Source: a virus
Taxonomy: Duplodnaviria > Heunggongvirae > Uroviricota > Caudoviricetes
Strand: one strand, 5' to 3'
Virus record (IMG/VR): IMGVR_UViG_2526164619_000010
Span: 1 to 23,525 of that record
DNA length: 23,525 bases
In this document: positions 7,746 to 17,617 of the stretch, piece after piece
How the letters are laid out: every line of letters begins with the position of its first letter
Position numbering within the stretch: the stretch's first letter is position 1
Notes under the pieces: generated by a model
What the model was told of the DNA's origin: nothing
What the model saw: the letters and a program-made list of their open reading frames with translations, nothing else
Database searches by the model: none
Program-made: the position numbers and the translations under genes

Positions 7746-9668
7746 GTGACTCTTAAACGGGCCTGTTCCCTGCTGACGGTGAAATCCTTCAGTGAGGATG
7801 AACGGGTGATCACCGGGATTGCGTCAACGCCTTCTCCGGATCGGGATGGTGACATCCTGGAGCCGGAGGGCGCGGAGTTTGGCAGTGCGATCCCGTGTCT
7901 CTGGCAGCATGACCATTCCCGCCCGGTGGGGCAGTGTACGGTGCGCCGGGTCAGCGAAGGGCTGGAAATCACGGCAACACTGGTGAAGCCCGTACCGGAT
8001 ATGCCGTCGCAACTGGCTGCCCGGCTGGATGAGGTCTGGGCGGCCATTAAGACCGGGCTGGTCAGGGGGCTGTCCGTGGGCTTCCGTCCCCATGAATACA
8101 CCTTTCTGGACGGAGGCGGACTGCATTTTCTGCGCTGGGAACTGATGGAGGTGTCTGCCGTCACCGTGCCCGCGAATGCGGAATGCACCATCCGGACCAT
8201 TAAATCTTACGACCGCCCGTTTTCTGCCGCGTCCGGCAACCGGAAACCGGTGGTGAAAATCGCATCTTCTGCCGGCGCTGCGGCACAGTCAACAACCGTT
8301 TTTCATAAGGAAAAGACCATAATGAATATTGGCGAACAGATTAAAAGTTTTGAAAACAAGCGTGTAGCGCTGGCAGCCTCCCTTGAGGAGGTCATGACCA
8401 AAGCCGCAGAGGAAGGGCGCACGCTGGATGTGGAGGAGGAAGAGCATTACGACAACACCGCAGCGGAAATCCGTCAGGTGGATGCGCACCTGAAGCGCCT
8501 GCGTGAACTGGAAGCCGGTAAGGCCGCCACGGCGCAGCCGGTGAAACAGGCCGGTAACGGGAATGTGGCCGCGGTGGCTTCTGCGCCGGTGATCCGTGTG
8601 GAGCAGAAACTGGATAAGGGGATTGGCTTCGCCCGCTTTGCCAAATCGCTGGCTGCGGCTAAAGGCGTCCGATCTGAAGCCCTGGAAGTGGCCCGTCGTC
8701 AGTATCCGGATGACAGTCGTCTGCATCATGTCCTGAAATCGGCAGTGGGCGCGGGGACCACCACGGATCCGCAGTGGGCAGGCAGCCTGTCTGAATATCA
8801 GGAATACGCACAGGACTTTATTGATTACCTGCGTCCGCAGACCATTATCGGGCGATTTGGTCAGGGCGGGATCCCTGCACTTCGTCAGGTGCCGTTCAAT
8901 ATCCGTGTGCACGCCCAGGTGTCCGGCGGTGCTGCCGGCTGGGTGGGTGAGGGTAAGGCAAAACCCCTGACGAAGTTTGATTTTGAATCCATCACCTTCA
9001 GTCATGCGAAGGTGTCGGCCATTGCGGTACTGACGGAAGAGCTGATCCGTTTTTCCAGTCCGGCAGCTGATGCGCTGGCAGAAGCGGTGGTGGCGCATCT
9101 GGACACAGACTTTGTGGACCCGAAAAAAGCCGCAGTGGCAGATGTCTCCCCGGCGTCCATCACCCATGATGTGAAGGGCAAGGCATCAACCGGTAACCCG
9201 GATGCGGATGCAGAGGCGGCGTTTGGACAGTTTGTGGCAGCAAACCTGCAGCCCACCGGTGCGGTCTGGCTGATGTCCAGCACCAATGTCCTGGCGCTGT
9301 CCATGCGTAAAAATACGCTGGGTCAGAAGGAATACCCGGACATGACCCTGCTGGGGGGGACCTTCCAGGGGCTGCCGGTGATTGTCTCCCAGTACGTGGG
9401 TGACCAGCTGGTGCTGGTGAATGCCCCGGATATTTATCTGGCGGATGACGGCGGCGTGGCAGTGGATATGTCCCGCGAAGCATCACTGGAAATGCAGTCT
9501 GAGCCGACCGGCGACAGTACCACGCCGTCGCCGGTGGAGCTGGTTTCCATGTTCCAGACAGGCAGTGTGGCCATCCGTGCGGAGCGCTGGATCAACTGGC
9601 GTCGTCGCCGTACCGCGGCGGTGGCGGTGATCACCGGTGTGAACTACGGCAGTGCGTCCGGCGGCTGA
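7746..9668 (+). CDS. fused prohead protease (HK97 S78/U35 family) - linker - major capsid protein (HK97 fold)
   Basis: 640-aa ORF; RBS AGGAGG 7734-7739, GTG start 7746. N-terminal ~170 aa (...GIASTPSPDRDGDILEPEGAEF...LWQHDHSRPVG...GLSVGFRP...VSAVTVPANAECTI) matches prohead protease; central charged/coiled segment; C-terminal ~330 aa (...WVGEGKAKPLTKFDFESITFSHAKVSAIAVLTEELIRFSSP...) matches HK97-type capsid. Confidence 0.8.
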   Translation: MTLKRACSLLTVKSFSEDERVITGIASTPSPDRDGDILEPEGAEFGSAIPCLWQHDHSRPVGQCTVRRVSEGLEITATLVKPVPDMPSQLAARLDEVWAAIKTGLVRGLSVGFRPHEYTFLDGGGLHFLRWELMEVSAVTVPANAECTIRTIKSYDRPFSAASGNRKPVVKIASSAGAAAQSTTVFHKEKTIMNIGEQIKSFENKRVALAASLEEVMTKAAEEGRTLDVEEEEHYDNTAAEIRQVDAHLKRLRELEAGKAATAQPVKQAGNGNVAAVASAPVIRVEQKLDKGIGFARFAKSLAAAKGVRSEALEVARRQYPDDSRLHHVLKSAVGAGTTTDPQWAGSLSEYQEYAQDFIDYLRPQTIIGRFGQGGIPALRQVPFNIRVHAQVSGGAAGWVGEGKAKPLTKFDFESITFSHAKVSAIAVLTEELIRFSSPAADALAEAVVAHLDTDFVDPKKAAVADVSPASITHDVKGKASTGNPDADAEAAFGQFVAANLQPTGAVWLMSSTNVLALSMRKNTLGQKEYPDMTLLGGTFQGLPVIVSQYVGDQLVLVNAPDIYLADDGGVAVDMSREASLEMQSEPTGDSTTPSPVELVSMFQTGSVAIRAERWINWRRRRTAAVAVITGVNYGSASGG

Positions 9669-9712: not shown

Positions 9713-9934
9713 ATGGCAAAGATCCGATATCTGCAGGGCACGCATGATGCCCGGGCCGGGGATATCCGTGATGTGGCACAGCCGTGCGCGGAGGTGCTGG
9801 TTCGCCTGGGAAAGGCGGAGTACATCACGGTGCGACGTCCGGCAGGTCAGAAAAAGAAACGTGATGCGGAGCATGGCGAATGTGGAACCTTTTACAGCGA
9901 ACCCGAAAAAACCAGAAATCAGGACGTGACGTAA
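9713..9934 (+). CDS. hypothetical 73-aa protein (doubtful gene)
   Basis: ORF MAKIRYLQGTHDARAGDIRDVAQPCAEVLVRLGKAEYI... between capsid and portal; no convincing RBS; 3' end overlaps the portal start by 55 bp. Confidence 0.25.
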   Translation: MAKIRYLQGTHDARAGDIRDVAQPCAEVLVRLGKAEYITVRRPAGQKKKRDAEHGECGTFYSEPEKTRNQDVT

Positions 9935-11243
9935 GAGAGGCGGGCTGGACCAGCCTGTTTCAGGCGGTGGCTGAGCCCTTTTCCGGCGCCTGGCAGCAGG
10001 GCGTGAAAGCCGATCCGGAAGCCGTCCTCTCCTTTCATGCGGTGTTTTAGTGCATTTCGCTGATATCCCAGGATATCGCCAAAATGCGGCTGCGTCTTAT
10101 GCAGACGGATGCGCAGGGGATACGCAGGGAAACTCGCCGGGGGGATATTGCCCGCCTCTGTCGTCGTCCCAACGCCCAGCAGAACCGCATCCAGTTTTTT
10201 GAACTGTGGCTGAACGCCAAACTGCGTCACGGCAATACGGTGGTGCTGAAAATCCGTAACTCCCGGGGGCAGATCAAAGAACTGCGCATTCTGGACTGGA
10301 GCCGGGTTGAACCACTGGTGGCGGATGACGGCGAAGTGTTCTACCGCATCACGCCGGATCGGAACTGCGGGATCACTGAGGCGGTGACGGTGCCTGCCCG
10401 GGAAGTGATCCACGACCGGTTTAACTGTTTTTTCATCCGCTTATAGGGTTGCCGCCGGTGTATGCCGCCGGGCTGGCCGCCACGCAGGGGCATCATATTC
10501 AGGAAAATTCGACGTATTTTTTCAGAAATGGCGGCATGCCGTCCGGGGTGATTGAGATCCCCGGCAGTATTACGGAAGAAAATGCGAAAAAACTGAAGAG
10601 CAACTGGGACAGCGGGTATACCGGCGAAAATGCGGGGAAAACGGCCATTCTGAGCAACGGGGCAAAATACAACCCCACGACGTTTTCACCGGTGGATGCG
10701 CAGACGGTGGAACAACTGAAGATGACCGCTGAAATTGTCTGTTCGGTGTTCCGTGTCTCGGCCTACAAGATTGGCGTGGGACAACCGCCTTCCAGTGACA
10801 ACGTGGAGGCGCTGGAGCAGCAGTATTATTCCCAGTGCCTGCAGACGCTGATTGAGTCCATTGAACTGTTACTGGATGAGGCGCTGGAAACGGGGGAAAA
10901 CGAGAGTACAGAATTTGATGTCACCACGCTGCTGAGAATGGACAGTGAGCGGCGCATGAAAACGCTGGGGGATGCGGTGAAAAATACGCTTCTCACGCCC
11001 AATGAGGCCCGTAAACGGGAGAACCTGCCGCCCCTGGCCGGCGGTGATGCACTGTATCTTCAGCAGCAGAACTACAGTCTGGAGGCACTGTCCCGTCGTG
11101 ATGCCCGTGAGGATCCGTTCGCGTCGACCGGGAAAACGGCCTTAGCGCAACCGCCTGACGGCGCATCTGACGGTAATAAGGCAATCAGTGAAACAGAGCA
11201 TGATGCGGTGAAAGCGATGTTCAGGGGAATTCTGAAAAAATGA
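9880..11243 (+). pseudogene. portal protein (HK97 family) inactivated by an in-frame TAG (10048-10050) and a 1-bp deletion in a T-run (10428-10433)
   Basis: Three pieces: 9880-10050 (ATG with GGAG 10 bp upstream), 10051-10446 in the same frame after the TAG, and 10449-11243 in another frame. Piece 3 carries the portal signature ...FFRNGGMPSGVIEIPG...GENAGKTAILSNGAKY...DAQTVEQLKMTAEIVCSVF...EFDVTTLLRMDSERR...LTPNEARKRENLPPLAGGD. Confidence 0.8.
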
Positions 11244-12301
11244 ATGAACGTGAACTGTCCATTATTCGTGCCCTGGGAGAAGAATTCGCCACGGTGCTGG
11301 CGGATTTACAGCGCACATTTGAGGAGAAGATGAGCGCGCAGGCACAAGCGTTTGAAGAGAAACTGGCTTCCCTGTCCGCTCTGTTACAGAAGCATGTGAC
11401 GGTGGATGAGGTTAGCCCTGTTCTGCAGGCGATGGTGGATGACGCAGTGGGGGCCATTCCGCTACCGCGTGATGGTCGCGATTATGATCCGGAAGTACTG
11501 AAGCAGGCGGTGAATGATGCGGTCGCGAAAATACCGGTGCCGGCAGACGGCAAAAGTATCACCCCCGATGATGTGCGTCCGATGCTTGAGCAGATGGTGA
11601 AAGAGGCTGTAAGCCATATTCCTGTTCCGCGTGATGGTCGTGACTACGATCCGGAAGTACTGAAGCAGGTGGTGAATGATGCGGTCGCAAATATTCCGCA
11701 GCCGGCGGACGGTAAAGGTCTCACCCCGGATGATGTGCGTCCGATGCTTGAACAGATGGTGACGGAGGCTGTAAGCCATATCCCTGTTCCGCGTGATGGT
11801 CGTGACTACGATCCGGATGTTCTGCAGAAGGCGGTTCTGGATGCGGTGAGTGCCCTGCCGGCTTCGCAGGACGGGCGTGATGCCACGGCTCTGGAAATAC
11901 TCCCCGCCATTGACGTTCAAAAATCCTTTCCCCGGGGCACGTATGCCACACACCAGGGCGGACTCTGGCGGGCGTATGAAAAAACGCACGGGATGCGGGG
12001 ATGGGAATGCCTGGTTGACGGGGTGGCGGATATTGACGTCAGCATGACGGGTGAGCGGTTGTTCTCTGTGGTGGTCCGGCAGAGCAGTGGCCAGCGTACG
12101 GAAAAAACATTTTCCCTGCCGGTGATGCTCTACCGCGGTGTGTTCAGAGCCGGTGAAACCTACCACCCCGGCGATATGGTGACGTGGGGGGGCTCGCTGT
12201 GGCACTGCAACAGTATGACCGAAGATAAACCCGGAGAAGCTCATTCATCAGCCTGGACCCTGGCTGCAAAACGTGGGCGGGATGCAGGAGGCGGAAAATG
12301 A
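11240..12301 (+). CDS. head-module protein of unknown function containing ~2.6 tandem 54-aa repeats
   Basis: 353-aa ORF translationally coupled to portal (ATGA at 11240-11243) and to the connector gene (ATGA at 12298-12301). Repeat unit IPVPRDGRDYDPEVLKQAVNDAVAKIPVPADGKSITPDDVRPMLEQMVKEAVSH. No family recognised. Confidence 0.6.
   Translation: MNERELSIIRALGEEFATVLADLQRTFEEKMSAQAQAFEEKLASLSALLQKHVTVDEVSPVLQAMVDDAVGAIPLPRDGRDYDPEVLKQAVNDAVAKIPVPADGKSITPDDVRPMLEQMVKEAVSHIPVPRDGRDYDPEVLKQVVNDAVANIPQPADGKGLTPDDVRPMLEQMVTEAVSHIPVPRDGRDYDPDVLQKAVLDAVSALPASQDGRDATALEILPAIDVQKSFPRGTYATHQGGLWRAYEKTHGMRGWECLVDGVADIDVSMTGERLFSVVVRQSSGQRTEKTFSLPVMLYRGVFRAGETYHPGDMVTWGGSLWHCNSMTEDKPGEAHSSAWTLAAKRGRDAGGGK
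11456..11880 (+). repeat. in-frame tandem repeat, 162-bp unit, ~2.6 copies (copies start 11456, 11618, 11780)
   Basis: Direct comparison of the three units shows high nucleotide identity with mostly synonymous or conservative differences; the third copy diverges after ~100 bp. Confidence 0.85.
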
Positions 12302-12624
12302 CGGCATTACTGACACTGGAAGAGATCAAGGCACATCTGCGTGTCGACCATGACGCGGATGATGACATGCTGATGGACAAGGTTCGTCAGGCTACCGCCG
12401 TGCTGCTGGCCTACATTCAGGGCAGCCGGGATAAAGTGATCCGTGAGGACGGTGAACTGATCCCGGGCGAGGCATTAACCCGGATGAAGGGGGCTGCCAT
12501 GCGACTGACCGGGATGCTGTACCGGAATCCGGATCTTGCAGAGCGGGAAAAACTGCTTCAGGGGGAGCTGCCGTTTTCTGTTTCCGTGCTGATTTACGAT
12601 TTGCGTTGTCCGACGGTGTTATGA
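12298..12624 (+). CDS. head-tail connector protein (phage gp6-like)
   Basis: 108-aa ORF MTALLTLEEIKAHLRVDHDADDDMLMDKVRQATAVLLAYIQ..., typical N-terminus of gp6-like connector proteins; position after head genes. Confidence 0.7.
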   Translation: MTALLTLEEIKAHLRVDHDADDDMLMDKVRQATAVLLAYIQGSRDKVIREDGELIPGEALTRMKGAAMRLTGMLYRNPDLAEREKLLQGELPFSVSVLIYDLRCPTVL

Positions 12625-13832: not shown

Positions 13833-14549
13833 ATGTCTGCTTTGTATGAACGCTCACAGCTGACGCAGGTGATGATTTCATCTGCCCCGGCGACTGCTGA
13901 AACTATGGATAAGGCGGAATATCTGCGCCTGGACTGCACCATCAAGGAAGTCCAGTTCACCACCGGTCAGAAACAGGATATTGATGTGACCACGCTCTGC
14001 TCCACAGAACAGGAGAACATCAACGGTCTGGGGGCGTCGTCTGAGATTTCCATGTCGGGTAATTTTTATCTGAATCAGGCCCAGAACGCCCTGCGTGATG
14101 CCTATGACAATGACGCGTTGTATGCGTTTAAGGTGCTGTTTCCGTCCGGTAAGGGCTTTAAATTCCTGGCGGAAGTGCGTCAGCACACCTGGTCATCCGG
14201 TACCAACGGTGTGGTGGCTGCAACGTTCTCACTGCGTCTGAAAGGCAAACCGGTGTCCTTTGTGGTACCGCTGGCGTTTGTGAAAAATCTGGATAAGACA
14301 CTTACCGTGAATACCGGTGCGCTGCTGACAATGTCAGTCAGTGCCAACGGGGGAATGCCGCCGTATAAATACGCCTGGAAGAAGGATGGTCAGCCGGTTG
14401 ACGGGCAGACGACAGACACCTTCAGTAAGCCAGGTGCGCAGTCCGCTGATGCGGGGAAATATACCTGCGTGGTGACCGATTCGGCAGAGAAAGCACAGAG
14501 TGTGACGTCTGTTGAATGCACCGTGACAGTGAGCGCAGCTGCCGGATAA
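13833..14549 (+). CDS. major tail protein with C-terminal Ig-like domain
   Basis: 238-aa ORF from ATG 13833 (RBS AGGAGG 13823-13828). The track ORF begins at 13698 but that extension spans the terminator hairpin. C-terminal ~90 aa (...LTMSVSANGGMPPYKYAWKKDGQPVDGQTTDTFSKPGAQSADAGKYTCVVTDSAEKAQSVTSVECTVTV) looks like an Ig-like fold. Confidence 0.75.
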   Translation: MSALYERSQLTQVMISSAPATAETMDKAEYLRLDCTIKEVQFTTGQKQDIDVTTLCSTEQENINGLGASSEISMSGNFYLNQAQNALRDAYDNDALYAFKVLFPSGKGFKFLAEVRQHTWSSGTNGVVAATFSLRLKGKPVSFVVPLAFVKNLDKTLTVNTGALLTMSVSANGGMPPYKYAWKKDGQPVDGQTTDTFSKPGAQSADAGKYTCVVTDSAEKAQSVTSVECTVTVSAAAG

Positions 14550-14563
14550 GGGGATGGGTCATC

Positions 14564-14824
14564 ATGAAAAAGGATCTGAAAACGCTGGCGCTGGCCAGAC
14601 TGTCAGGGTTTCGTCATAAAACGGTGAAGGTGCCGGAATGGGGGAATGTCAGCGTGGTGCTGCGGGAGCCTTCGGCAGAGGCCTGGTATCTGTGGCAGGA
14701 AGTGCTCAATGGTGATGGAGAGGATGACGATACCCTGTCGGTGGTGGCGAAAACCCGCCGTAACCTGGAAGCGGATGTGACGCTGTTCTGCGATGTCCGT
14801 AAGCTTCCGGGGAACTCATATTGA
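14564..14824 (+). CDS. tail assembly chaperone (gpG-like)
   Basis: 86-aa ORF MKKDLKTLALARLSGFRHKTVKVPEWGNVSVVLREPSAEAWYLWQEVLNGDGEDDD... acidic small protein between major tail and tape-measure genes. A +1-frame ORF (14793-15002) continues past its stop and may be the T-like extension. Confidence 0.6.
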   Translation: MKKDLKTLALARLSGFRHKTVKVPEWGNVSVVLREPSAEAWYLWQEVLNGDGEDDDTLSVVAKTRRNLEADVTLFCDVRKLPGNSY

Positions 14825-15158
14825 CGCGTTTTTCAGGCGCGCGTCATCGGCGGCGCATACGAACGCTCGTGGTTTGATAACGGTTGATTTATTTTGTTGC
14901 ACAGAGACGATCGCCAGGCAGGTACCGGAGGCGGGCTCTGAAGTACTGAGTAGCGTGATCGCGTCAGGCCGCGAAGTACTGACTCGGATTAATTGCAGGT
15001 GATGATGTACTGACCCGGGAATGACTCCGGGCTGATTCAGGTTCTTATTCGCTGTCAGCCCGCGTGGTTGCTGGTCTGGCTCATTTCCTGCCGTCAGGAG
15101 TTCAACTCCCGACTGCAGGTTATGGCCCGGTGCACGAACACCTGACGGCAGGTATCAC

Positions 15159-16759
15159 TCACCCGGAGAAGGTAAATCCCTCAAGAGGCAGCAACTCTGC
15201 CAGTCGCTCCTCCGGCCACTCCGGCAGACGCATCAGGACGTCTGTCAACCAGGCATGCGGCTCCAGACCGTTGCGTTTCGCGGTTTCCAGCAAGCTCATT
15301 ATTTGCGCGGCGCGTTCTCCCGCCATCTGCGAACCGGCGAACAGCCACGATTTTCTGCCCAGAACCACGTTTTTGATGGCCCGTTCACACACATTATTAT
15401 CCAGCGGCACCGCACCATCTTCCAGGAAGCGGCTCAGTTCCACGCGATGAGACAGCGCATAGGCAATGGCTTTGTGTAATGCCTTTCCCGGAGAACATTG
15501 CGGTTCCTGCTCTTCAAGCCATGACCACAGTTCTTCCAGTATCGGACGGGCATAACGCTGTCGCCACTGGCGGATTTTTTCCACGGGGCGGCTACTGATC
15601 TTCTTCTCAAGACGGTACAACCCCGCGATTTTCTTCACGGCTATGGCAGCCCGTGGATCTTTACTGATTTTATACAGGTCGGCGAAGCCCCTGCGGGCAT
15701 GGGCCCAGCATCCGGCCAGCGTGATCTCCGGCACTTTGTTTGCCAGAGTCCGGTAAGCTTTATGTCCGTCGACAACCAGCGTCCCGCCCCAGCCCTGAAG
15801 CCAGTTTTCAGGATACTCATGGCTACGTCCGGTCCGGCAGTCGAAGCACACAACTGACGGTCCCGTCCTTTCTCCACTGACGTATGCCCACAGATAACCG
15901 GAGCAGGATTTACCGCCTTTCTTCGTGTTCAGGATCTTCAGGGTAGTCTCATCTGCATGCACCACCGGACGGTTTATCAACTCGCGATGGAGTAACGCCG
16001 CCAGGGGAGATAATTCGGCACCCGCCGCGCCAACCATGTCAGCCATCGAACTGACGGGCAGCCCGACATCTGAACGGGCAAAGACCTGTTGCTGGCGATA
16101 CAGAGGCAGGTGGTCACCGTATTTATTGATGATCACCTGTGCGATGACTGATGGCTCAACGGCACTTTTCGGGAGGATATGTGCCGGCATTTCACCGCTG
16201 AACACCTTCTGACAACAGGGACAACTGTATTGCGGACGGACATAACGGTTCACCACAAAGTGAGCGGGAATATACTCCAGCTTTTCACTCACCGCATCGC
16301 GGATATAGTGCAGCGGCTCGTCACATTCAGGGCAATGGTCAGTGTCCGGCTGGATAATTTTTTCCACCCGTGGAAGATGAACCGGTAAGGGTTTGCGTAT
16401 CGGGCGTGAACGGGACGCTTTTTCATCTTCTTCAGGGGATTGCGGGAGCAGTTTATCCAGATGTGCGGTAAGCGCGGCGATATCGGCATCAACATCCTCT
16501 TCGAATAGGGAGCGTTGCATACCAGCCAGCGTTTCACATTTTTTCCGAAGCGCTGTTGACGAACCAGTTTCAGCATTTCTTCCAGAAGCTGGATGCGCCG
16601 GCTTTTCTCCAGTAATTCCCGCTCTTTTTCGGCATTCTCCGACATGACTTCTTGTACCATGGCAAGTGCCATAGCACGCAGTTTTTCGATGTCATTCGTG
16701 GTGTTGAGAGCGGAGATATCCATACAGGGGAGTATATCACTCCAGATACGGATATTCAT
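15159..16759 (-). pseudogene. IS66-family transposase TnpC, frameshifted by a 1-bp deletion in an A-run (plus-strand T-run 16539-16544)
   Basis: N-terminal leucine-zipper part ...LLEKSRRIQLLEEMLKLVRQQRFGK (from 16759 or 16723) is in one frame; the remaining 453 codons (15159-16520, with CxxC...CxxC zinc motif and DDE-type core) are in another. Restoring one A gives a continuous ...RFGKKCETLAGMQRSLFEE... reading. Confidence 0.75.
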
Positions 16760-16765
16760 TATTTT

Positions 16766-17158
16766 TCACTGAGTTAGCAGTGTATTTTGCGTGTTTTCAG
16801 GGCGCAGTTCAGGTTCATTCTGCCAGACCCATTTCGTCAGGTCATGTCCCTTAACCTGCTGCCAGTCAACACCGGCAATCAGCCAGTTAAACTCGTCGGG
16901 AGTGAGGTGCCAGGCAGCGTCATTTGCACGTGGCCAGCGGAAGCTGCCTTTGTGCAGACGGCGGGTACACAACCACACCCCGTGTTTATCCCACCGGAGA
17001 ACTTTGATACGCGAACGGGCTTTGTTAACAAAGACGAAGGCGGCTCCCTCATGCCATGTCGACCGGAGTTCATCCTGTATATACTGCATCAGTGAGTCGA
17101 TGCCCCGGCGCATGTCAACAGGTTTAATTGCGATGAAGACATTATCAGGACTGAGCAT
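16766..17158 (-). CDS. IS66-family TnpB (orf2)
   Basis: About 130 aa from ATG 17158 (MLSPDNVFIAIKPVDMRRGIDSLMQYIQDEL...VLRWDKHGVWLCTRRLHKGSFRWPR...), typical IS66 Orf2; start overlaps tnpA stop. Confidence 0.8.
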   Translation of the reverse strand: MLSPDNVFIAIKPVDMRRGIDSLMQYIQDELRSTWHEGAAFVFVNKARSRIKVLRWDKHGVWLCTRRLHKGSFRWPRANDAAWHLTPDEFNWLIAGVDWQQVKGHDLTKWVWQNEPELRPENTQNTLLTQ

Positions 17159-17474
17159 ATTTGAGTGCCCTGAAGACATCGGTAAGTTGTGACGGCTGAC
17201 AGCACATCCGTACTCCACCGGGAAGGAAGAGCGTGACTGGCTCATTCGTGACGGGCTGTGGTACATCAGCATGCAGTGGTGGCGCAATATGAACGGGAAG
17301 AACGGTCGGTTCATTTGCCCGGCGTTCAGCTTTTGCGACATCCTGCGGCCATTCGCGAAGTGATGTGAAGGGAATATCGTTGAGTTCATAGTATTGCTGA
17401 CGTGTAAGACCACTGGCGCGCCAGGCAGCAACGTGCTGCCTTTTCTGTTCAATGGTCCATCGGGGTTTTGACAT
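17145..17474 (-). CDS. IS66-family TnpA (orf1)
   Basis: 109-aa ORF MSKPRWTIEQKRQHVAAWRASGLTRQQYYELNDIPFTSLREWPQD... first gene of the IS66 operon. Confidence 0.8.
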   Translation of the reverse strand: MSKPRWTIEQKRQHVAAWRASGLTRQQYYELNDIPFTSLREWPQDVAKAERRANEPTVLPVHIAPPLHADVPQPVTNEPVTLFLPGGVRMCCQPSQLTDVFRALKYAQS

Positions 17475-17617
17475 CGATTATCTCCGGTAAGTTGGTGAAT
17501 GGATGTCGGTAATACTAACTGACCGAAGATCCCTGTGAAGATGACTTCCCCGTAACGACACTCAAAATTTCGGCAAATTCACAGTCATTCCAGTCGGAGA
17601 TCCAGCGGGCGTCCCGT

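What the first reader, a model, noticed from the sequence alone, without database searches (positions are those of the whole stretch)
11240..12301. Uncharacterised tandem-repeat protein embedded in the head operon
The gene is translationally coupled on both sides (ATGA overlaps with portal and connector), so it is a genuine virion-module gene. It encodes an N-terminal helical segment, ~2.6 copies of a 54-aa repeat (IPVPRDGRDYDPEVLKQAVNDAVAKIPVPADGKSITPDDVRPMLEQMVKEAVSH) and a ~130-aa Trp/Gly-rich C-terminal domain (…WECLVDGV…GETYHPGDMVTWGGSLWHC…). I recognise no family. It sits where HK97-like phages put protease/scaffold and where SPP1/Mu-like phages put a portal-associated minor head protein, sometimes fused to effector domains. 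Repeat number could vary by slippage. Candidate roles are decoration/cement protein, internal or ejection protein, or a cargo domain carried on a head protein.
Basis: partly seen in the sequence, partly recalled or inferred. Interest (0 to 1): 0.6.

Follow-up and report, generated by a model that had tools for sequence, protein, structure and literature searches.

The report
Portal-tethered head protein, mislabelled "portal"
The ORF is a real, uncharacterised gene that always sits just after the portal gene in a very common family of prophages (including Shiga-toxin phages), is mislabelled "portal protein" in databases, and most likely hangs from the inner end of the portal; this copy lies in a dead prophage.

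Summary
Observation confirmed. ORF 11240-12301 (353 aa) is intact. It has ATGA overlaps at both ends, a long N-terminal helix, 2.6 copies of a 54-aa repeat, and a conserved C-terminal beta domain.

It is not family-less. It matches phrog_1289/phrog_2271, both labelled "portal protein", and NCBI also names it so. That label comes from E. coli alleles in which one extra G (G5 to G6, 17 nt before the portal stop) fuses it to the portal. It has no portal domain.

The separate gene is the ancestral state. The order protease-capsid fusion, portal, this gene, gp6-like connector holds across Proteobacteria in about 110 loci. Nearly every portal-seeded viral contig with enough downstream DNA carries it.

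The C-terminal domain has a CBM5/12 (chitin-binding-like) fold and is about as conserved as the portal and capsid. Repeat number varies from 0.3 to 5.3 copies.

Independent fusions to the portal C-terminus, and one fusion of its last module to a prohead protease, favour a location inside the capsid on the portal crown. This is inferred, not shown. An external fibre is the main rival.

The window's prophage is defective: terminase and portal are pseudogenes and three IS elements are present.

The parts
11240..12301 (+). Gene X: intact 353-aa ORF, the portal-adjacent head protein (phrog_1289 family)
   Evidence: dN/dS ~0.3
11246..11383 (+). N-terminal long helix (aa 3-48), conserved MxERELSxI..GEE motif. 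Proposed docking segment for the portal tail.
   Evidence: AF2; conservation. The docking role is inferred.
11456..11878 (+). 2.6 copies of the 54-aa (162-nt) repeat, made of 27-aa loop+helix half-units. Variable-length spacer.
   Evidence: TRF; AF2 helices 84-96, 109-125, 138-150, 163-179, 192-204; copy-number variation
11879..12274 (+). Conserved C-terminal all-beta domain (aa ~214-345) with CBM5/12-like fold
12131..12289 (+). Last ~53-aa module (YRGVF..GD.VTWGGSLWHC..WTLAAKRGRD), shared with the ~100-aa 'mini-X' proteins found next to capsid or protease genes
11240..11243 (+). ATGA overlap of the portal stop with the X start
   Evidence: The same kind of 1-17-nt overlap occurs in 21 diverse loci.
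12298..12301 (+). ATGA overlap of the X stop with the connector start
11224..11227 (+). Remnant of the G-run (GGGGA here; G5 in split alleles, G6 in portal-X fused alleles of E. coli)
9880..11243 (+). Portal gene (HK97 family), a pseudogene in this window: TAG at 10048-10050, 1-nt deletion in the T-run at 10427
11112..11243 (+). Portal C-terminal tail: Pro/Ala/Ser/Asp-rich linker plus a terminal amphipathic helix (..ETEHDAVKAMFRGILKK). Proposed tether for X.
   Evidence: The same design is conserved in 21 loci. The tether role is inferred.
12298..12624 (+). gp6-like head-tail connector (Ad1), downstream partner
   Evidence: PF05135; synteny
7746..9668 (+). Prohead protease (S78) + scaffold + major capsid fusion, the upstream module partner
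   Evidence: synteny

Best explanation
Shown: gene X is a separate, core gene of one widespread HK97-type head module. The gene order is terminase, S78 protease-scaffold-capsid fusion, small ORF, portal, X, gp6-like adaptor. X is not a portal and not a broken piece of one.

Inferred: X is a portal-tethered protein on the capsid-interior side of the portal.
- Its N-terminal helix docks on the short amphipathic helix at the end of the portal's long flexible C-terminal tail. In fused alleles it is joined to that tail covalently.
- The loop-helix repeats, which are PEPLPDI repeats or collagen-like GXY runs in relatives, form a spacer of freely variable length.
- The conserved CBM5/12-fold C-terminal domain is the working end. 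It binds a conserved virion partner, most likely the inner face of the capsid protein or its protease-scaffold part. That would couple the portal to shell assembly.

Whether X stays in the mature head is unknown. In this window X is intact but stranded in a defective prophage.
For: Core-gene status:
- The order portal, X, connector is kept in about 45 of 64 genome loci found through X, from Enterobacterales to Rhizobiales and Burkholderiales.
- It is kept in all but one (L125) of the ~63 of 80 IMG/VR contigs found through the portal alone that have enough downstream DNA.
- 5782 cluster representatives match X, mostly 240-700 aa and stand-alone.
- Isolated phages BP-4795 and FSL SP-016 carry the two-gene form.

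Tethering to the portal:
- Start/stop overlaps of 1-17 nt in every locus examined.
- Independent in-frame fusions to the portal C-terminus: the E. coli G6 clade (1369 places in 782 of 5426 genomes, including phage 2851), L128 (1243 aa), L132/L057 (X part has no Met of its own) and P0361.
- Portal C-termini of solved portals lie in the crown, inside the capsid (established knowledge).

Binding a virion partner rather than a host receptor:
- The C-terminal domain is about as conserved as the portal core and capsid, and far more than the connector. Median identities at medium and large distance: domain 65/56/51%, portal 70/51/47%, capsid 80/50/44%, connector 55/37/32%.
- Its last module recurs in ~100-aa 'mini-X' proteins encoded directly after the capsid gene or the prohead protease gene. 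In L068 it is fused to the C-terminus of an S78 protease, the position where protease-scaffold fusions carry their capsid-binding end.
Against: - No experiment and no structure places X anywhere.
- Its build is that of an external phage fibre: an N-terminal helix, a segmented helical or collagen-like stalk (more than 200 GXY residues in L120) and a CBM5/12-fold tip. Foldseek matches are mostly tips of collagen-repeat phage proteins and tail fibres.
- Such long stalks fit poorly inside a ~50-60 nm head.
- In the E. coli fused allele, the ATG of X and the G-rich Shine-Dalgarno-like run are retained. Free X could still be made there, which weakens the fusion argument.
- A mini-X directly after a capsid gene is also the classic position of a decoration protein.
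- Only one protease-module fusion was seen.
Confidence: 0.45

Rival explanations
1. External fibre. X is a trimeric neck whisker, head fibre or decoration protein. It is anchored by its N-terminal helix near the portal vertex or on the capsid, and it displays a glycan-binding CBM5/12 tip that aids reversible adsorption to surfaces or cells.
For: The fibre-like build includes collagen-like GXY stalks in homologues (P0234, P0235, P0239, L120). The fold is CBM5/12. Foldseek hits are to collagen-repeat and tail-fibre proteins. Stalk length varies freely. The gene lies next to the adaptor gene. Mini-X directly after the capsid gene is the usual decoration slot. Precedents from established knowledge are the SPP1 gp12 collagen-like decoration protein, phi29 gp8.5 head fibres and T4 fibritin.
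Against: X is recurrently fused in frame to the portal C-terminus, which faces the capsid interior. One lineage has no separate start for X. X is near-universal in the module, whereas decoration and fibre genes are usually sporadic. The tip domain is as conserved as the portal and capsid across hosts from E. coli to Rhizobiales, unlike receptor-binding tips. The module is fused to a prohead protease in L068.
Confidence: 0.25
2. Internal, gp7/MuF-like role. X is carried inside the head on the portal and acts at DNA packaging or ejection. For example, it holds a DNA end, or it leaves with the DNA and binds the peptidoglycan glycan backbone through its chitin-binding-like domain.
For: X has the same gene position and portal association as SPP1 gp7 and MuF proteins. 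Those genes lie immediately downstream of portal genes, and gp7 binds the portal (PMC5576092). CBM5/12 modules bind GlcNAc polymers, and peptidoglycan is a universal ligand, which would fit the high conservation.
Against: No MuF domain was detected. Covalent fusion to the portal would block ejection unless the protein is cleaved. The link between the mini-X module and capsid or protease genes points to a capsid partner rather than DNA or peptidoglycan.
Confidence: 0.15
3. Recoding or switch. The G5/G6 run is a programmed frameshift site or phase-variable tract, so one locus makes both free portal + X and a portal-X fusion.
For: Fused and split E. coli alleles differ only by one G in a homopolymer. 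Both are common: 1369 versus 715 + 113 places. The X frame is open for 12 codons upstream of its ATG.
Against: G6 alleles form a single clade in 16 loci, so there is no sign of repeated switching. Other genera have no G-run, and the frame offset is 1 or 2 with overlaps of 1-17 nt, so no slippery site is conserved. The window itself has GGGGA.
Confidence: 0.05
4. Artefact. The ORF is only the C-terminal third of a long portal gene, split off here by a frameshift (the reading implied by NCBI's 'frameshifted portal' annotation).
For: RefSeq annotates an 807-aa portal across this region in L001 and flags the split O157:H7 copy as frameshifted. The window's portal really does carry other lesions.
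Against: The two-gene form is found in almost all lineages, including isolated phages. X has its own conserved Met and N-terminus. The portal ends with a conserved ..RG(I/F)L.K* in both E. coli and Salmonella phages. X has no portal domain.
Confidence: 0.03

Closest known systems
SPP1 gp7 / Mu gpF (MuF superfamily) portal-bound minor head proteins
   Same: The gene lies immediately downstream of the portal gene and is coupled to it. The protein is associated with the portal. The region downstream of the conserved N-terminal part is variable (PMC5576092).
   Different: No MuF domain (PF04233/PF06152) was detected at E<=1. The fold is unrelated: helix-loop repeats plus a CBM5/12-like beta domain. 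X belongs to HK97-type (PF04860) portal modules and precedes the adaptor gene, not the scaffold. Copy number per virion is unknown.
HK97-family phage portal protein (PF04860), the database label of this ORF
   Same: X is adjacent to the portal. In the E. coli G6 alleles it is covalently continuous with the portal, as in phage 2851 (859 aa) and WP_001513216 (807 aa).
   Different: X contains no portal domain. The PF04860 match lies wholly in the upstream gene. The label comes from the fused alleles.
CBM5/12 chitin-binding modules of chitinases (e.g. Serratia ChiB, Streptomyces ChiC)
   Different: X is not attached to a glycoside hydrolase. The window sequence scores 21.4 bits against a 26.2-bit cut-off. 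The domain is embedded in a larger ~135-aa beta domain. Sugar binding is untested.
Trimeric phage fibres and decorations (T4 fibritin, phi29 gp8.5, SPP1 gp12 collagen-like decoration protein)
   Same: X has a segmented helical stalk (collagen-like in homologues), variable length and a small globular tip.
   Different: There is no sequence similarity. X is recurrently fused to the inward-facing portal C-terminus, is present in essentially every member of the module, and has a tip as conserved as the capsid.
P22 portal C-terminal barrel
   Same: In fused alleles a long, largely helical extension leaves the portal crown.
   Different: X is ancestrally a separate gene. It consists of helix-loop beads, not a continuous coiled coil, and ends in a beta domain.

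Membership tests
phrog_1289 / phrog_2271 (PHROGs, labelled 'portal protein') | Significant profile match over the family model | tested here: met
   phrog_1289 matches at E 2.2e-174 over aa 1-353 and profile positions 1-331 of 331. phrog_2271 matches at E 1.6e-230, only at profile positions 643-859 of 859. Distant homologues hit the same families.
HK97-family phage portal protein (PF04860) | Presence of the Phage_portal domain | tested here: not met
   There is no PF04860 hit at E<=1 in the ORF. The domain is in the upstream gene in relatives.
CBM_5_12 (PF02839) | Score at or above Pfam's gathering cut-off (26.2 bits) | tested here: not met
   21.4 bits, E 2.7e-4, aa 303-325.
CBM_5_12 (PF02839) | CBM5/12 three-dimensional fold | tested here: met
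CBM_5_12 (PF02839) | Binding of chitin or another glycan | not testable with these tools
   Needs a binding assay.
MuF superfamily (SPP1 gp7 / Mu gpF) | MuF domain (PF04233 / PF06152) | tested here: not met
   No hit at E<=1.
MuF superfamily (SPP1 gp7 / Mu gpF) | Gene immediately downstream of the portal gene | tested here: met
   The criterion is taken from PMC5576092.
MuF superfamily (SPP1 gp7 / Mu gpF) | Physical binding to the portal inside the head | not testable with these tools
   Suggested only by the recurrent gene fusions.
Collagen-like phage fibre proteins | GXY triple-helix repeats | tested here: not met
   The window ORF has none. Homologues P0234, P0235, P0239, L046 and L120 do.
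   S78 and Phage_capsid are fused in the ORF at 7746-9668. X has no protease hit.

The most novel reading that the evidence does not exclude
X and its ~100-aa 'mini-X' relatives define an unrecognised class of capsid-binding adaptor. It combines a short N-terminal helix with a CBM5/12-derived module ending in WTLAxKRGRDG, and that module has been re-purposed from sugar binding to binding the HK97-fold shell. In the long form, the adaptor is hung on the portal's C-terminal tail so that the portal captures capsid subunits and nucleates a one-portal procapsid. In the short form, it travels with capsid or protease genes, including in tiny integrase-primase-terminase-capsid elements that look like phage satellites.
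Probability: 0.2. Interest if true: 0.7.

Novelty: new variant of a known kind. Interest (0 to 1): 0.5.

Why it matters
This gene is present in several copies in most Shiga-toxin-producing E. coli. Matches occur in 1247 of 5426 complete E. coli genomes, with a median of four matching places each. It is a fixed part of a head module that spans the Proteobacteria. Yet it has no described function and is systematically mis-annotated. It is called "portal protein", and intact two-gene alleles are flagged as frameshifted pseudogenes.

Correcting that affects how prophage intactness is judged in STEC genomics.

Biologically, how portals are recruited into shells whose scaffold is fused to the capsid protein is poorly understood. 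A portal-tethered capsid-binding protein would be a concrete, testable answer. If it is instead an external glycan-binding fibre, it would be a new adsorption organelle on Stx phages. Either result is accessible with existing inducible phages: BP-4795 (split) and 2851 (fused).

Tried and rejected
1. My first reading was that the ORF is a frameshift artefact of an 807-aa portal. I rejected it after the wide surveys.
2. Conserved programmed frameshift at the junction. Frame offsets and overlaps differ between lineages and no slippery motif is shared.
3. Phase variation at the G-run. G6 alleles form one clade among 16 loci. The sample is small.
4. Pfam, NCBIfam and PDB sequence or profile searches found nothing beyond weak CBM5/12 matches and spurious matches to designed helical repeats.
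5. Seven literature searches found no paper on this protein.
6. The protease/scaffold slot idea is excluded by the S78-capsid fusion upstream.
7. Host-receptor-binding tip. This fits poorly with conservation equal to that of the portal and capsid.
8. The exact junction of the window (GGGGAATTCTG) has no match in 5426 complete E. coli genomes. The source organism was not pursued.
Full report
**1. The observation**

The ORF at 11240-12301 (+) is open and encodes 353 aa.
- Its ATG overlaps the stop of the upstream ORF as ATGA (11240-11243). Its stop overlaps the ATG of the next gene as ATGA (12298-12301).
- The next gene is a gp6-like head-tail connector (PF05135).
- Tandem Repeats Finder reports a 162-nt unit, 2.3 copies, 88% matches, at 11465-11835. 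In the protein the 54-aa unit occupies aa 73-126, 127-180 and a partial copy to about aa 213.
- Each unit is two related ~27-aa halves: a Pro/Gly/Asp loop followed by a short amphipathic helix.
- AlphaFold2 on the full protein (mean pLDDT 66.5) gives a 46-residue N-terminal helix, six short helices separated by low-confidence loops, and a C-terminal beta domain.
- The C-terminal 148 aa modelled alone reach pLDDT 84.6.
- Against close relatives, dN/dS is about 0.3 in both non-repeat parts.

**2. State of the surrounding prophage**

The window was aligned to an E. coli ST131 prophage (L001, 97% identity over 8.8 kb). The alignment shows several lesions.
- The large terminase has a CGA-to-TGA nonsense codon at 7217-7219 and a 19-bp deletion at 7400.
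- The portal has TAG at 10048-10050 and a one-base deletion in a T-run at 10427.
- About 517 bp spanning the tail chaperone genes and the start of the tape measure gene are replaced by a 2.8-kb IS66-family element.
- An IS1 and an IS3-family transposase lie further upstream.

The prophage is defective. The ORF is intact but probably no longer serves a virion.

**3. Is it a gene or a piece of the portal?**

RefSeq annotates one 807-aa "phage portal protein" across this region in L001. It flags the O157:H7 copy L002 as "frameshifted". PHROGs places the ORF in two families labelled "portal protein". I therefore first suspected a frameshift artefact. The comparative data say otherwise.
- In E. coli the fused and split forms differ by a single G in a homopolymer 17 nt upstream of the portal stop. 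G6 gives ..FRGDTEKM(T/N)EREL.. (fused). G5 gives ..FRGIL(K/R)K* overlapping ATG (split). The window has GGGGA.
- The split portal ending ..RG(I/F)L.K* is also found in Salmonella phage FSL SP-016, which has no G-run.
- Phage BP-4795 carries the split form (454 aa + 461 aa). Phage 2851 carries the fused form (859 aa).
- Junction-specific 45-nt megablast searches of 5426 complete E. coli genomes find the G6 fused junction at 1369 places in 782 genomes. They find the two G5 split junctions at 715 and 113 places.
- In 16 loci the G6 alleles form one clade. This looks like one successful fusion event, not a flickering switch.

**4. Distribution outside E. coli**

- An exhaustive profile-free search finds 5782 cluster representatives (627 at E<1e-30). 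Most are 240-700 aa. Of ten long ones scanned, only one (1237 aa) contains a portal domain; the others simply have more repeats.
- A scan of one genome per species with the C-terminal domain returned 64 loci. In about 45 of them, from Enterobacterales, Pseudomonas, Marinobacter, Burkholderiales, Rhizobiales, Acetobacteraceae and Caulobacterales, the order is S78 protease-capsid fusion, portal (~450 aa), X (195-556 aa), connector (~108 aa). X is a separate ORF in all of these except one Brevundimonas locus, L057.
- The converse test used only the portal to fetch 80 IMG/VR contigs. Every contig with enough downstream DNA (about 63) except L125 has X between portal and connector, down to 46% portal identity.

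X is therefore a core gene of this head module, not a sporadic accessory. The start of X overlaps the portal stop by 1-17 nt, with a frame offset of either 1 or 2. That argues for translational coupling and against a conserved programmed frameshift.

**5. Anatomy across the family**

- The N-terminal helix is conserved. It reads MxERELSxI..GEE in enterics. In distant members there is a ..P(L/I)..R(I/L)..LE motif.
- The middle is replaced freely. It can be 54-aa units (0.3 to 5.3 copies in E. coli, giving 245, 299, 353, 407 and 461 aa), about 30 PEPLPDI..MV..AV units in L128, or collagen-like GXY runs in P0234, P0235, P0239, L046 and L120.
- The C-terminal ~135 aa are strongly conserved, with 35 invariant positions in 14 sequences.
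- Foldseek against viral models finds mostly collagen-repeat and ChiC_BD proteins, with low TM-scores.
- No solved structure contains this protein.

**6. Where does it sit and what does it bind?**

This part is inference. Five lines of evidence point to the capsid interior at the portal.

(a) X has been fused in frame to the portal C-terminus independently in several lineages.
- These are the E. coli G6 clade, L128, L132/L057 and P0361.
- In L132/L057 the X part has no Met of its own, so it can exist only as a fusion.
- In all solved portals the C-terminus forms the crown inside the head (established knowledge).

(b) Every portal of this family ends in a 25-40-aa Pro/Ala/Ser/Asp linker and a ~15-aa amphipathic helix immediately before the X start. 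This looks like a tether with a docking helix.

(c) The C-terminal domain of X evolves about as slowly as the portal core and the capsid protein, and much more slowly than the connector.
- Median identities to the E. coli reference, in three distance bins: X domain 65/56/51%, portal 70/51/47%, capsid 80/50/44%, connector 55/37/32%.
- That is not how receptor-binding tips behave.

(d) The last ~55 aa of X (YRGVF..GD.VT.GGSLWHC..WTLA.KRGRDG) recur, joined to a short N-terminal helix, in a large family of ~100-aa "mini-X" proteins.
- The family has 1966 hits.
- Mini-X is encoded directly after a prohead protease gene (L058, L060, L069).
- It is encoded directly after a capsid gene (L064, L066, L070, L151).
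- In L068 it is fused to the C-terminus of an S78 protease. That is the place where protease-scaffold fusions such as lambda C/Nu3, P2 gpO and Mu I/Z carry their capsid-binding end (established knowledge).

(e) X is near-universal in the module (section 4).

Together these suggest a portal-tethered protein whose conserved module binds the shell or its internal protease-scaffold part. That would couple the portal to shell assembly in a module that has no free scaffolding protein.

**7. What argues against this**

- The build of X is that of an external trimeric fibre: an anchoring helix, a segmented or collagen-like stalk of variable length, and a carbohydrate-binding-fold tip.
- L120 has more than 200 collagen-like residues. 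That is awkward inside a 50-60-nm head.
- In the E. coli fused allele the ATG of X and the G-rich Shine-Dalgarno-like run survive. Free X could still be made there.
- A small protein after the capsid gene is also the usual decoration slot.
- I saw only one protease fusion.

I therefore rate the interior, portal-tethered, capsid-binding model at about 0.45. I rate an external fibre at 0.25, a gp7-like packaging or ejection role at 0.15, a recoding switch at 0.05, and a pure artefact at 0.03.

**8. Comparison with known systems**

- By position and portal association X works most like SPP1 gp7 / Mu gpF. Those genes lie immediately downstream of portal genes, and gp7 binds the portal (PMC5576092). 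X has no MuF domain and a different fold, so it is not a member of that family.
- X is a member of phrog_1289, a family without a real functional annotation.
- X is not a portal protein (no PF04860 domain).
- Its tip has the CBM5/12 fold, but sequence membership is sub-threshold and sugar binding is untested.
- Seven literature searches found nothing on this protein.

**9. Verdict**

The finding is real and moderately interesting. It is a catalogued but mislabelled and uncharacterised core head gene of a very common prophage family. Its architecture (fibre-like) and its genetics (portal-fused, capsid-linked) pull in opposite directions. It is best filed as a new variant of the known kind "portal-associated minor head protein". 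The particular copy in this window is an intact relic in a dead prophage.

Noticed in passing
window 14799-17561 (IS66 transposase 15159-16520, accessory ORFs to 17474, minus strand): An IS66-family element replaces about 517 bp present in relative L001. The lost segment covers the tail assembly chaperone genes and the start of the tape measure gene.
   Followed up: partly
window 6041-7683: The large terminase is a pseudogene, with a CGA-to-TGA nonsense codon at 7217-7219 and a 19-bp deletion at 7400.
   Followed up: yes
window 751-1254 and 3717-4535 (minus strand): An IS1 transposase and an IS3-family (rve) transposase flank a 653-aa DUF1737 + SASA esterase + DUF6645 protein at 1447-3408. That protein resembles the NanS-p-type esterase of Stx prophage late regions.
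   Followed up: no
window ~9069 (within capsid gene 7746-9668): There is a 15-bp in-frame deletion in the protease-capsid fusion gene relative to L001. The ORF stays open at 640 aa.
   Followed up: no
L002 (NZ_CP136755.1) 5640-8224 and many RefSeq E. coli genomes: PGAP marks intact two-gene portal + X alleles (G5) as a 'frameshifted' portal pseudogene, because its reference is the fused G6 form. This probably inflates the count of defective prophages in STEC genomes.
   Followed up: partly
L068 3380-4237: A single ORF joins an S78 prohead protease domain (aa 4-168) to a helical segment and the mini-X CBM-like module (aa 213-283).
   Followed up: partly
L151 (Polaromonas sp. JS666 CP000316.1) 1-8500; L153/L154: Mini-X (105-109 aa) overlaps the stop of a capsid gene. 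It lies inside a small element carrying an integrase, an AAA_25 primase/helicase-like gene, a small-terminase-like gene and little else. This layout is that of a phage satellite.
   Followed up: no
window 11215-11260: The exact junction sequence of this window (GGGGAATTCTGAAAAAATGA) has no match in 5426 complete E. coli genomes. The best full-length match of the ORF among the rows listed is 94.9% (higher-identity matches listed cover only part of it). The source may be a draft E. coli or a related genus such as Shigella.
   Followed up: no
window 13836-14549: The major tail protein carries a C-terminal Ig-like domain (Ig_2/Ig_3/I-set hits), as in many lambdoid tail tube proteins.
   Followed up: no
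L120 5151-7577: An 808-aa X homologue mixes collagen-like GXY runs, DFDP-helix units like those of the window, and repeated small beta units (..LIDRSG.LV.TL.NGE...LG..). It is the most fibre-like member seen.
   Followed up: no
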